Part shown: in pieces, positions 49,161-52,350 of the stretch
How positions within the stretch are numbered: position 1 is the first letter of the stretch
How the letters are laid out: each line of letters opens with the position of its first letter
Source: Longimicrobiales bacterium
GTDB lineage: Bacteria > Gemmatimonadota > Gemmatimonadetes > Longimicrobiales > Gaopeijiaceae
Direction: 5' to 3'
DNA: 64,000 nt
NCBI GenBank assembly: GCA_965249725.1
Contig: CBDFMQ010000001.1
Span: forward strand, 192,001-256,000
Position numbers and translations under genes: made by a program
The notes under the pieces: model-generated
Seen by the model: only the letters and a program-made list of their open reading frames with translations
Told to the model about the DNA's origin: nothing
Databases searched by the model: none

Positions 49161-49200
49161 AAAAAAGAAGGGGCCGCCCCGACGAATCGGAGCGGCCCCT
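49161..49200 (-). terminator. Intrinsic terminator after cold-shock gene 1
   Basis: AGGGGCCGCTCCGA-ttcg-TCGGGGCGGCCCCT then TCTTTTTT. Confidence 0.9.
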
Positions 49201-49226: not shown

Positions 49227-49439
49227 TCAGGTGACTCTCACCACGTTCTCTGCGGCTGGTCCCTTCTGCCCCTCGACGATCTCGAACTCGACGACGTCGC
49301 CTTCGTTCAGTGTCTTGAAGCCCTCAGCCTGAATGGCAGAGTGGTGGACAAAGCAGTCCTTGCTGTTGTCCTCCGGCGTGATGAATCCGAATCCCTTCTG
49401 ATCGTTGAACCACTTCACTGTCCCTCTGGTACGCATCAT
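49227..49439 (-). CDS. Cold-shock protein (CspA family), copy 1
   Basis: GTVKWFN..KGFGFI (RNP1), FVHHSAI (RNP2). Confidence 0.97.
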
Positions 49440-49575
49440 CCAGCTCCTTTGGTGGTCACTGTCGGAGTCCGGATGAACCGCACCTTCCGACTAGATGACT
49501 CGCGCGGAAACTCCCCCGCGCTAGGCCCCGTGCCAGTAGCGACACGGAAGAAATCCTCGACGTCGGGTCGAGGGT
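49440..49575 (-). ncRNA. Putative structured 5' leader of csp copy 1
   Basis: Four hairpins in the same order as in the csp copy 2 leader. Confidence 0.6.
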
Positions 49576-49581
49576 GAACCA

Positions 49582-49610
49582 ACGGTGCCTGCCCGTGTGC
49601 TCCCGGTCAA
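49582..49610 (-). promoter_or_regulatory. Putative sigma70 promoter of csp copy 1
   Basis: TTGACC-N17-CACCGT. Confidence 0.5.
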
Positions 49611-49640
49611 GTCTTTTCCTTTGGCACCTCGGCGCGCCTC

Positions 49641-50105
49641 CTACTTCTTCCTGCGGACGGCCTGGATCATCTGGTCGAGGGCCTGGAGGAACTGAGACCG
49701 GTCCCGCTTCTCAAAGGGAGGGGGTCCGCCGGTCACTTCGCCCATATCGCGTAGTTGGGACATGAGTTCCCTGGTTGCCAGTGCGCCACCGATGGAATCC
49801 TCCGTGTAGGGACGTCCACGTGGACCGAGCACCCCGGCCCCCTTGCTCAAGCAGTCCGCGGCCAGGGGGATGTCGGCCGTAATCACGATGTCGTCCTCGG
49901 ATACGTGTTCGACGATCCAGGCGTCTGCTGCGTCTAGCTCTCCGTCCACGATCACCAATTCGAGCCAATCCTCCCGGGGCGTGCGGAGCCAGGAGTTGGA
50001 GACCAGCTTCACGCCGATGCCGTAGCGCTGGGCGACACGATAGACCTCATCCTTCACCGGACAGGCGTCGGCGTCCACGAAGATTCTCGGCAAGGAGTCC
50101 GTCAC
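49641..50105 (-). CDS. yaiI: YaiI/YqxD (DUF188) family protein
   Basis: IFVDADACPVK, DAADAWI, ITADIPLA, GGPPPF. Confidence 0.93.
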   Translation of the reverse strand: MTDSLPRIFVDADACPVKDEVYRVAQRYGIGVKLVSNSWLRTPREDWLELVIVDGELDAADAWIVEHVSEDDIVITADIPLAADCLSKGAGVLGPRGRPYTEDSIGGALATRELMSQLRDMGEVTGGPPPFEKRDRSQFLQALDQMIQAVRRKK

Positions 50106-51079
50106 GGCGATGCCGATCCGAGGACCGGCCCCATCGGTATCAGCGTGCTCCGAATTTCAGCGATGTGCCCGGGCTGGATTCGGCAACATCCGCCGATTCC
50201 GGTCGCGCCCAGTTCGGCCCATTCTTCCACGAAGGTCACCAAGTCGCTCTGGTGCGGGGATGGGGCCCAGGTCTTCGTGGTCGCGTCGTAGGTCTCACCG
50301 GAGTTCGCATAGACGATGACGTGCTTCGGCTTGGCCTTCCTCATCTCGCCGATGAGCGACGAAACTCGATAGGGAGGGATGCAGTTGACCCCGATAGCCG
50401 CTATCCGTGGCTCGCCGGCGCACAACTCGGCGACCTGCTCGAGCCGAGTGCCGTCACTCAGATGAGCTCCGTCCCGACAGCTGAAGCTCATCCACGCCCA
50501 GCAGTCCTCTGTCTCCTGCAACAGTCTAAGGAGAGCCTCGACTTCGGGAAGCGACGGAATGGTCTCGCACGCCATCAGGTCCGCGCGGCTGCCTGCCAGC
50601 GCTTGCCAGCGTCTCTCATGGAAGGCGTGCAGTTCGTCCGCGTCGAGCCCGTAGTCGCCGGTGTACTCCGATCCGTCGGCGAGGAACGCTCCGTACGGCC
50701 CGATACTGGCCGCGACGAGGGGGCGAAGGCGACCCTGTCGGTTGGCCGGGTCCGCCCAGAAGGCGTCGCGGGTATCGACCGCGATGTCTACGGCCTGCAC
50801 CAGAAGTCCCTCGGCCTCCTCCTCTCCGAGACCCTTGGCCGCGAAGCCGGGGAACGTGGCCTGATAGGTAGCCGTCGCGATACAGTCGGCACCTGCGGCC
50901 AGGAAATCGCGGTGTACTTCCGCGATGGCGTCTGGGTCCTCCAGGATCACCTTGGCGGACCAGAGATCGTCGTTGAGGACGTGCCCGCGGGCCTCCAAGG
51001 CGGTGGCCAGGCCACCGTCCAGCACGAGTCTACCCTGGGAGCGCACGAACGGGACGAGTGGGTTCTCGATGTCTACCAT
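50102..51079 (-). CDS. mmuM: Homocysteine S-methyltransferase
   Basis: LDGGLAT, LWS, GPYGA..DGSEY, GVNC and GGCC Zn ligands. Confidence 0.93.
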   Translation of the reverse strand: MVDIENPLVPFVRSQGRLVLDGGLATALEARGHVLNDDLWSAKVILEDPDAIAEVHRDFLAAGADCIATATYQATFPGFAAKGLGEEEAEGLLVQAVDIAVDTRDAFWADPANRQGRLRPLVAASIGPYGAFLADGSEYTGDYGLDADELHAFHERRWQALAGSRADLMACETIPSLPEVEALLRLLQETEDCWAWMSFSCRDGAHLSDGTRLEQVAELCAGEPRIAAIGVNCIPPYRVSSLIGEMRKAKPKHVIVYANSGETYDATTKTWAPSPHQSDLVTFVEEWAELGATGIGGCCRIQPGHIAEIRSTLIPMGPVLGSASP

Positions 51080-51087
51080 CCCTTCGT

Positions 51088-51125
51088 AAAAAAGCGGGCC
51101 ACCCCGAATCCTCGGGATGGCCCGC
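51088..51125 (-). terminator. Intrinsic terminator after cold-shock gene 2
   Basis: GCGGGCCATCCCGA...TCGGGGTGGCCCGC then T6. Confidence 0.88.
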
Positions 51126-51159
51126 CGCCTGCTATAGGCCATACGGCCTTATTGAGGCT

Positions 51160-51369
51160 TTAGAGCTTCTGGACGTTCTCTGCAGCGGGACCCTTCTGGC
51201 CCTCCACCACGTCGAACTCAACGCTCTCGCCCTCGGCGAGAGACTTGAAGCCCTCGGCCTGAATCGCCGAATGATGAACGAACAGATCTCTGCTGCCATC
51301 CTCCGGGGTGATAAAGCCGAAGCCCTTTTGGTCGTTGAACCACTTCACAGTGCCTTTGGTACGCATCAT
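51160..51369 (-). CDS. Cold-shock protein (CspA family), copy 2
   Basis: RNP1/RNP2 motifs; close paralog of copy 1. Confidence 0.97.
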
Positions 51370-51550
51370 CTTGCTCCATCTTGTTGGTCATGGTCGGAGT
51401 TTCGGACAATCCGCACCTTCCGACTTCTTGACTCTCGCGGTCGTAACCCCCGCGCTGGGTCGTGGCACTTGCCACGAAAAAAGCGGGCAGCCCGTGGAGG
51501 CCCCCGCATCGGTACTTCTGCTTACAGCCTACGCTCAGTTTTCTTTATTC
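51370..51550 (-). ncRNA. Putative structured 5' leader of csp copy 2
   Basis: Shares sequence blocks and hairpins with the copy 1 leader; includes a hairpin followed by U6. Confidence 0.6.
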
Positions 51551-51556
51551 GCCGTA

Positions 51557-51585
51557 AAGCTCACGGAAACGCCCCGTGGCGTCAA
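51557..51585 (-). promoter_or_regulatory. Putative sigma70 promoter of csp copy 2
   Basis: TTGACG-N17-GAGCTT. Confidence 0.42.
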
Positions 51586-51903
51586 CTACCGCGGATCCGT
51601 GGGGGGAAGGCCTCTCAGGGTACAGAGAAGCGTAGTCGGGCTCCTAGGCCTTCCCCCTCCGTATCGAGGAGGGCCCCGGCGCTACGGTTCAGTTCGGTTA
51701 CCGTCAGTTCTTGAAGGTGGAGCATGATCGCCTCCCCCCCGAAGGGGGCATACCGGTGCCTTCGAAGCGTCGAGAGAGACCGGTCGCCCCGACAAACTGA
51801 GAATGTCCGCACCACTAGCATAATCTCACGAATCGAAGCGTGCCGCGCTGTAGGGGTTTTTCTGATATGGGCAAGCCAGCGTACGGTGCGCATATTGATA
51901 TGC

Positions 51904-52350
51904 ATGGAGTGTCGCAACCGAGACGAGCTGCTCCCGGCGACCGAAGTGTCTGCAGACGGCCGGCTACCGTGCCGCGGGTTTACGCTGATCGAGCTGATGA
52001 TCGTGACGGTCATCGTCGCACTGTTGGCGGGCATCGCGGTGCCCGAGTTCGACGGTATCCGACAGAAGGCCTTCAACGCTGCGGCTCTGGCGGATCTCAA
52101 CAACGCCAACAAGGAGATCGAGCGCTTCTTCAACGACAACTTTCGATATCCCGCGGATGATGACGAGTTGATCGCAGCGGGGTATTCGCACTCCCCAGGC
52201 GTGTCGTTTACGACGTTCAGCATCCGGGATGCCAGCAACCCGGCCACGACCCGCGTGCACATGCACATCAACCACGAGGGGTCGACGCACTACTATCACT
52301 ACGAATATCCGAAGGGGTATGCCGGGGTGCCGGAGCTTCGCTGGAAGTAG
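51904..52350 (+). CDS. Type IV pilin / pseudopilin-like protein
   Basis: RG|FTLIELMIVTVIVALLAGIAVP class III signal; start codon uncertain. Confidence 0.88.
   Translation: MECRNRDELLPATEVSADGRLPCRGFTLIELMIVTVIVALLAGIAVPEFDGIRQKAFNAAALADLNNANKEIERFFNDNFRYPADDDELIAAGYSHSPGVSFTTFSIRDASNPATTRVHMHINHEGSTHYYHYEYPKGYAGVPELRWK

What the first reader, a model, noticed from the sequence alone, without database searches (positions are those of the whole stretch)
49440..51550. Two csp genes share a conserved multi-hairpin 5' leader: candidate new cis-regulatory RNA
Seen (minus strand): both leaders have P1 (CCGUGUC...GGCACGG vs UCGUGGC...GCCACGA), P2 (GCGCGG...CCGCGC vs CGCGG...CCGCG) and a long P3 (GUCA-n4-GUCGGA-AGGUG-CGG...CCG-..AC-UCCGAC-n2-UGAC) ending just before the GGAG RBS. 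Loops differ while pairing and the AGGUG internal loop are kept. Known: the E. coli cspA leader is a thermosensor RNA. Inference: a lineage-specific thermoswitch or Csp-binding element that may be undescribed.
Basis: partly seen in the sequence, partly recalled or inferred. Interest (0 to 1): 0.72.

Follow-up and report, generated by a model that had tools for sequence, protein, structure and literature searches.

The report
Two-state cold-shock gene leader RNA
The two look-alike stretches are copies of a folded RNA leader that heads cold-shock protein genes across Gemmatimonadota bacteria; it appears built to flip between a shape that frees the ribosome start site and one that buries it, much like the cold-shock switches known from other bacteria but with its own structure.

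Summary
Real, and larger than reported. Both leaders belong to a csp-specific RNA found in 69 of 151 genomes of the phylum; 88 of 89 examined matches sit directly before a cold-shock gene. No Rfam family matches the leader. P3 (ON) hides an anti-Shine-Dalgarno strand. The same strand, its loop and P3's 5' side can instead pair with the SD, start codon and codons 2-3 (OFF). Both helices co-evolve in independent sequence pairs: ON 44 vs 14, OFF 52 vs 11. Upstream, 134 of 161 leaders carry a terminator-like hairpin behind a promoter-like site, with no RNA antiterminator found. Best reading: a kinetic translation switch of the csp thermoswitch kind, driven to OFF by warmth or Csp binding. The trigger is untested; equilibrium folding shows no temperature effect. 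I found it in no paper searched, but this scan noted the terminator half before on another Gemmatimonadota genome (e1-7743038). New variant of a known kind.

The parts
51557..51585 (-). Copy A sigma70-like promoter (-35 at 51580-51585, -10 at 51557-51562); predicted start about 51550
   Evidence: Pattern found upstream of the terminator in 111 of 134 leaders vs 9 on the reverse strand and 4-9 in shuffles; coordinates. Prediction only; the strict consensus scan did not list it.
51477..51507 (-). Copy A terminator-like hairpin (51483-51507) and U run (51477-51482) inside the predicted leader
   Evidence: class-wide in 134 of 161 leaders, arms co-vary 47 vs 1. Not listed by the stricter scan.
51460..51477 (-). 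Copy A P1 (variable across the family)
   Evidence: halves co-vary 33 vs 17, p=0.033
51436..51454 (-). Copy A P2
51387..51432 (-). Copy A P3, the ON hairpin that hides the anti-SD strand (51396-51410 with loop)
51358..51417 (-). Copy A OFF helix: 51396-51417 paired with SD (51374-51377), start codon (51364-51366) and codons 2-3
   Evidence: Duplex -20.6 kcal/mol, matched or beaten by 16 of 448 control SD regions; lowest-energy fold of the full predicted leader
51160..51366 (-). Cold-shock protein gene A (a second in-frame ATG at 51367-51369)
   Evidence: PF00313, E 2.3e-32
51093..51126 (-). Intrinsic terminator-like site after gene A
49582..49610 (-). Copy B sigma70-like promoter (-35 at 49605-49610, -10 at 49582-49587); predicted start about 49575
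   Evidence: prediction only
49548..49573 (-). Copy B short 5' hairpin with a weak U-rich tail (reduced terminator-like module)
49528..49547 (-). Copy B P1
49502..49521 (-). Copy B P2
49455..49499 (-). Copy B P3, ON hairpin (anti-SD strand with loop 49464-49477)
49428..49484 (-). Copy B OFF helix: 49464-49484 paired with SD (49444-49447), start codon (49434-49436) and codons 2-3
   Evidence: Duplex -30.5 kcal/mol, matched by 0 of 448 control SD regions; lowest-energy fold
49227..49436 (-). Cold-shock protein gene B (a second in-frame ATG at 49437-49439)
   Evidence: PF00313, E 2.9e-31
49169..49200 (-). Intrinsic terminator-like site after gene B

Best explanation
A cis-acting two-state translation switch in the 5' leader of csp genes. 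As the leader is made, P3 folds first and hides the anti-SD strand, leaving an A/C-rich linker, SD and AUG open (ON). Once SD and the first codons exist, P3's loop, 3' strand and 5' side can instead zip onto SD, spacer, AUG and codons 2-3 (OFF), a helix of about equal or lower energy. Shown by computation: both helices exist, exclude each other and are kept by selection. Inferred: ON is a kinetic trap that lasts in the cold, while warmth or accumulated Csp chaperone speeds refolding to OFF, giving cold induction and negative feedback. An upstream terminator-like hairpin in most leaders probably adds control of transcription read-through (weaker inference).
For: Swap test on 81 disjoint sequence pairs from a tree of the coding sequences (own partner pairs better vs swapped partner): whole P3 44 vs 14 (p=1e-4), lower P3 43 vs 9, P2 37 vs 10, long OFF helix 52 vs 11 (p=1.7e-7); loop..anti-SD against SD..AUG 46 vs 14, 8 control windows not significant; pairs differing only in the P3 loop 32 vs 8, which P3 itself cannot explain; a third set found by a P3 pattern alone 19 vs 7, p=0.029. 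OFF duplex in the best 5% of 150 control SD regions for 120 of 163 leaders; codon 2 is CGU in 121 of 139 Arg codons vs 14 of 67 in control genes. Prefix folds P3 in 139 of 163; ON-OFF gap median -1.8 kcal/mol in 125 scored. 88 of 89 model matches precede csp. Same two-state logic is shown for E. coli cspB/G/I, S. aureus cspB/C and Listeria cspA.
Against: No experiment. Equilibrium folding shows no temperature effect: OFF above 0.5 in 104, 111 and 115 of 163 at 4, 37 and 55 C; from 15 to 37 C the gap moves toward ON in 70 and toward OFF in 56 of 126; for copy A in that window ON rises with temperature, the wrong way for a cold switch. The P3 core is nearly invariant and gives no covariation (25 vs 17, p=0.28; no significant core pair in the independent set). 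Pairing of P3's 5' side with codons 2-3 is not significant alone (17 vs 9; 5 vs 3). In the third set loop vs spacer reached only 15 vs 6, p=0.078, with a control at 10 vs 5. No fixed-column pair of the OFF helix was significant; its register shifts between sequences. The barrier figures are upper bounds and would look alike for any helix exchange.
Confidence: 0.66

Rival explanations
1. Two-state switch, but the trigger is not temperature: it is purely Csp level (homeostatic autoregulation), ribosome availability, or another protein or small ligand that binds the invariant bulged core of P3.
For: P3 core sequence is far more conserved than its pairing needs; no equilibrium temperature effect; many csp paralogues are not cold-induced (general knowledge; PMC8034633 section 27 notes this cannot be predicted).
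Against: The invariant letters are those that must pair in both states, which explains them without a binder; all tested csp two-state leaders in the papers read respond to temperature. No Rfam riboswitch resembles it.
Confidence: 0.2
2. The main control is transcription attenuation at the terminator-like hairpin; P1-P3 serve stability or ribosome standby, and the OFF pairing is secondary.
For: Hairpin plus U run in 134 of 161 leaders vs 20 reverse strand, 27 and 36 shuffled, 16 of 200 control genes; promoter-like site about 71 nt upstream of the U run, a second internal one in only 8 of 134.
Against: 27 of 161 leaders lack it, several with a promoter right before P1, and copy B has only a reduced form; no antiterminator co-variation (13 vs 21); OFF helix co-evolves strongly.
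Confidence: 0.08
3. The hairpin and U run are not a terminator but an RNase III cleavage or Csp-binding site, as in S. aureus cspA, and the leader works by processing.
For: No RNA antiterminator; U runs are often short (4-5 U of 8 in 71 of 134); one contig from an RNA library runs across the U run (X1 record 8, 51368-51527); precedent described in PMC8722363.
Against: Stems are short GC-rich hairpins directly followed by U, the form of an intrinsic terminator; the contig is one low-depth record, may be DNA, and read-through is expected under attenuation too. This rival concerns only the upstream module.
Confidence: 0.04
4. Inherited sequence similarity with no RNA function.
For: Folding energy of single leaders is not unusual.
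Against: Four-fold sites are saturated while the leader is kept; tree-aware covariation of P2; swap tests; csp specificity.
Confidence: 0.02

Closest known systems
E. coli cspB, cspG, cspI 5' UTR thermometers (PMC13271884, passages read)
   Same: A long stem-loop taking in leader and coding start buries RBS and start codon; a shorter, leader-only stem-loop frees them.
   Different: No sequence likeness was tested against these leaders; here a separate co-varying P2 and an upstream intrinsic terminator-like hairpin are added; temperature response untested.
S. aureus cspB/cspC thermoswitches (PMC8034633, abstract and sections 21, 27 read) and L. monocytogenes cspA thermoswitch (PMC8722363, passages)
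   Same: Paralogous csp leaders with mutually exclusive open and locked forms; a hairpin hides the anti-RBS; CspA may act at the hairpin loop to favour the locked form.
   Different: Those sequences are confined to staphylococci or Bacillales/Lactobacillales; leaders of 110-160 nt with no terminator in the passages read; here the loop is mostly anti-spacer/anti-AUG rather than a U-rich motif.
Rfam RF01766 cspA thermoregulator
   Same: Same gene class; the model scores 50.6 and 45.5 bits over leader, gene and terminator.
   Different: Below the 78-bit cut-off in both copies and in 16 of 16 matches among 18 relatives; the score comes from coding sequence and terminator, leader alone gives no match.
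Rho-dependent switches in E. coli/Salmonella cspA/B/G leaders (Delaleau 2024, seen only as reviewed in PMC12360218)
   Same: Early termination and translation are both controlled in a csp leader, with Csp feedback.
   Different: There Rho acts; here an intrinsic-type hairpin with U run lies upstream of the translation switch.

Membership tests
Rfam RF01766 cspA thermoregulator | Score at or above the gathering threshold (78 bits) | tested here: not met
   50.6 and 45.5 bits; best relative 71.8
Rfam RF01766 cspA thermoregulator | Leader sequence and structure fit the model without the coding region | tested here: not met
   No RF01766 match to either leader alone up to E=10
csp two-state 5' UTR thermoswitches (functional class) | Lies in the 5' leader of a cold-shock gene | tested here: met
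   88 of 89 matches; promoter-like site upstream in 111 of 134; start site not mapped
csp two-state 5' UTR thermoswitches (functional class) | Two mutually exclusive folds, one burying the RBS, sharing an anti-RBS strand | tested here: met
   By computation and co-evolution only
csp two-state 5' UTR thermoswitches (functional class) | Open form favoured in the cold | tested here: inconclusive
   No equilibrium effect; a kinetic effect is possible but needs probing
csp two-state 5' UTR thermoswitches (functional class) | Csp binding drives the locked form | not testable with these tools
   Needs binding and probing assays
Intrinsic transcription attenuator | Terminator hairpin and U run between promoter and gene | tested here: met
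   134 of 161 vs controls; arms co-vary 47 vs 1
Intrinsic transcription attenuator | Competing RNA antiterminator | tested here: not met
   Upstream leader vs 5' arm 13 vs 21, vs 3' arm 17 vs 18
Intrinsic transcription attenuator | Regulated early 3' end in vivo | not testable with these tools
   Only assembled contigs were available
Known riboswitch or other Rfam cis-regulatory family | Match to a curated model | tested here: not met
   0 gathering-level matches in the window; leader-only best 12.3 bits, E 4.6-9.4

The most novel reading that the evidence does not exclude
A tandem, protein-gated leader: an intrinsic terminator with no RNA antiterminator is read through only with Csp help (positive feedback), while downstream a kinetic switch uses its loop as an anti-start-codon toehold so that more Csp, or warmth, shuts translation (negative feedback). 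One leader would then hold Csp within a band, with the protein's first codons fixed by RNA pairing across a phylum.
Probability: 0.2. Interest if true: 0.7.

Novelty: new variant of a known kind. Interest (0 to 1): 0.5.

Why it matters
It adds a phylum-wide cis-regulatory RNA family for a widespread, mostly uncultured soil and marine phylum with hardly any described RNA regulators, and both of its states carry evolutionary support, which is uncommon for predicted switches. It shows csp two-state leaders with yet another structure, here coupled to an intrinsic terminator-like module, and gives exact mutations to test in a cultured Gemmatimonas or an E. coli reporter. The regulatory principle itself is known.

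Tried and rejected
Rfam membership: rejected. Recent duplication as the cause of similarity: rejected. RNA antiterminator, pairing of the 5' end with the stretch after the U run (27 vs 15, p=0.088), and pairing of P3's freed 5' side with P1 or P2: no support. Equilibrium temperature sensing: not seen. Co-variation of P3's 5' side with codons 2-3 on its own: not significant. A second promoter after the U run, which would make the front part a separate small RNA: pattern in 8 of 134 only. Expression: four RNA runs with shares of 0.05-0.06 were laid; they are contigs of relatives, cover the two csp genes and parts of both leaders and none of the genes between, but runs were found through these genes and contigs show no start, end, strand or level, so no conclusion is drawn from uncovered parts. 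Viral contigs: 1 pattern hit, not before a csp gene. Weak model hits at E above 0.005 (L222, L378, L375, L376) and one at E 2.8e-5 (L383) were not before csp genes and are taken as noise. Literature: nine searches listed no paper on this element; main texts of PMC11109978, PMC8632094 and PMC2965389 hold no 'csp' (the first two no 'Gemmati' either); one supplement of PMC8632094 gave 0 hits; supplements of PMC11109978 and PMC5737381 could not be read and may list it; the main text of PMC5737381 was not searched. R-scape, CMfinder and protein structure tools were not run.

Full report
Observation. Two cold-shock genes (PF00313) lie on the minus strand at 51160-51366 and 49227-49436, separated by a homocysteine S-methyltransferase and a DUF188 gene. 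The leaders share 82% over 38 nt while 7 of 24 four-fold sites of the genes agree, and the nearest relatives of A and B in the coding tree are two leaders from one other genus, so the pair is old and the leader is under selection. Folding energy alone says little (z -0.72, -1.54).

Family. I gathered 131 csp upstream regions from relatives (the query included coding sequence, so its 59 of 61 is not a leader count), aligned 60 and built model R1 of P2, P3, linker, SD and ATG without coding sequence. In the own genome R1 finds 3 places at E up to 1, all before csp genes; two other csp genes lack it. In the phylum 69 of 151 genomes match (counts include the own genome and unpublished G114). I examined 89 of the 101 matches outside the own genome, including the 60 weakest bar one; 88 lie directly before a csp gene, the miss being the weakest hit (one of the 88 is from G114). 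The model contains SD and ATG, so nearness to some start is built in, but not the gene's identity. The window's phylum is inferred from this. A second model R2 matched 31 of 41 genomes of the order (includes unpublished G056, G037 and a few noise-level hits), 5 of 141 in the phylum of an Acidobacteriota record and 3 of 81 in that of a Krumholzibacteriota record; of those outside loci 9 precede csp and 2 do not. Several genera of the window's own family gave no match in those searched. Filters scored only the best candidates per genome, so misses are not absence.

Structure. On the 87 matches not used for the seed, 91% of cells pair and the covariation score is 0.240 against 0.115 shuffled (alignment fitted to the model, control blind to kinship). 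My own tree-aware G-test, modelled on R-scape but not R-scape, finds 4 of 6 P2 pairs significant in that set, and 2 P2 pairs plus the base of the P3 core in the first set; the rest of the P3 core is too invariant to test.

The second state. Copy B's lowest-energy fold is a long helix that buries SD and AUG, and the full predicted leaders of both copies fold that way at 15 and 37 C. Across the family the loop and 3' strand of P3 are complementary to SD, spacer and AUG, and P3's 5' side to codons 2-3. To test this I took 163 distinct leaders (from 174 aligned matches, dropping G114's locus beforehand, near-duplicates, the non-csp hit, one ill-parsed row and identical rows), built a tree from the coding sequences, formed 81 disjoint pairs and asked whether each strand pairs better with its own partner or the sister's. 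Results, own vs swapped: loop..anti-SD with SD..AUG 46 vs 14; loop-only differences 32 vs 8; long OFF helix 52 vs 11; whole P3 44 vs 14; lower P3 43 vs 9; P2 37 vs 10. Eight control windows were not significant. Both data sets agree (22 vs 7, 17 vs 6). A third set of 81 leaders gave 19 vs 7 and, for loop vs spacer, 15 vs 6 (p=0.078). About 40 such tests were run; the main ones survive correction, P1 (p=0.033) and the third set do not. Against: P3 core 25 vs 17, 5' side with codons 17 vs 9 and 5 vs 3, no fixed-column OFF pair. The OFF duplex ranks in the best 5% of control SD regions for 120 of 163 leaders, and codon 2 is CGU in 121 of 139 Arg codons against 14 of 67 in control genes; csp genes left out of the 163 also often use it (a mixed set), so this bias is suggestive only.

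Mechanism. A prefix ending before the SD folds P3 in 139 of 163 leaders; with the start present OFF is lower in 74 of 125 scored, median gap -1.8 kcal/mol, with a direct-path barrier near 19 kcal/mol at 37 C and 25 at 10 C. The linker is 77% A or C, fit for ribosome landing. Equilibrium occupancy barely moves from 4 to 55 C, and copy A moves toward ON on warming in one window. So if temperature is sensed it is through folding kinetics: ON forms first and lasts in the cold; warmth or Csp chaperone lets it relax to OFF, probably seeded by loop-AUG pairing. These steps are inference from the anatomy and from E. coli, S. aureus and Listeria csp leaders.

Upstream module. 134 of 161 leaders with enough upstream sequence hold a GC-rich hairpin and U run about 125 nt before ATG, against 20 on the reverse strand, 27 and 36 in shuffles and 16 of 200 control genes. 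A sigma70-like site precedes it in 111 of 134 (controls 4-9), placing the start about 71 nt before the U run and 193 nt before ATG. No RNA antiterminator co-varies. The module is optional (27 of 161 lack it) and reduced in copy B. Csp proteins alter read-through at terminators in either direction (PMC8307031, passages), so protein-gated read-through is plausible but unshown; a processing or binding site is the rival. One RNA-library contig crosses the U run of a copy A relative, a weak hint of read-through.

Comparison. It is not RF01766 or any Rfam family. It works like the E. coli cspB/G/I thermometers (long stem with coding start vs short leader stem) and the S. aureus and Listeria switches (hairpin hides the anti-RBS), with a different structure and an added terminator-like part. 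Papers seen: PMC8034633 abstract and sections 21, 27; passages of PMC8722363, PMC13271884, PMC12360218, PMC8307031, PMC11109978, PMC8632094; a word search of PMC2965389; Giuliodori 2010, Zhang 2018, Caballero 2018 and Delaleau 2024 only as cited there. Nine searches listed no description; two motif-catalogue supplements were unreadable. This scan's own notes hold the terminator half in another Gemmatimonadota genome and a similar design in Omnitrophota, seen after my tests and not counted as support.

Verdict. A real, csp-specific, phylum-wide two-state leader RNA; new variant of a known kind; trigger unproven. Interest 0.5.

Noticed in passing
G000:C3:2276938-2277027 (-): Third, diverged copy of the leader before another csp gene, with full terminator-like module and OFF helix.
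   Followed up: yes
G000:C3 about 853045-853248 (-): A fourth csp gene has a short, unrelated leader that shares a few letters with the P3 5' side, and its protein lacks one residue, a Phe, in the second RNA-binding motif relative to the window's proteins.
   Followed up: partly
window 49641-51142 (-): Homocysteine S-methyltransferase and YaiI/YqxD (DUF188) genes lie between the two csp genes; the DUF188 gene also precedes csp B in G011.
   Followed up: partly
window 51724-52350 (+): Divergent gene with a type IV pilin N-terminal methylation motif; true start probably downstream of the listed ATG.
   Followed up: no
L379, L380, L381, L382, L347 (Acidobacteriota phylum set); L344, L346, L348, L349 (Krumholzibacteriota set); L345: Full leader before csp genes in scattered genomes outside Gemmatimonadota; L380 and L381 lie on megabase contigs and lack the terminator module. 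Transfer, loss or mis-binning not resolved.
   Followed up: partly
L011, L012, L017, L025, L039, L043, L054, L075, L145 upstream hairpin: A subgroup keeps an identical U-rich 7-nt loop in the terminator-like hairpin, a possible Csp contact.
   Followed up: no
L061, L104: Here the leader begins right at the end of an upstream small basic ORF, with no promoter or terminator module of its own visible.
   Followed up: no
L020: Two csp genes in tandem 435 nt apart, each with its own copy of the leader.
   Followed up: partly
L040, L057, L127: csp leaders that keep the terminator-like hairpin but lack P2-P3, so the two modules can occur apart.
   Followed up: no
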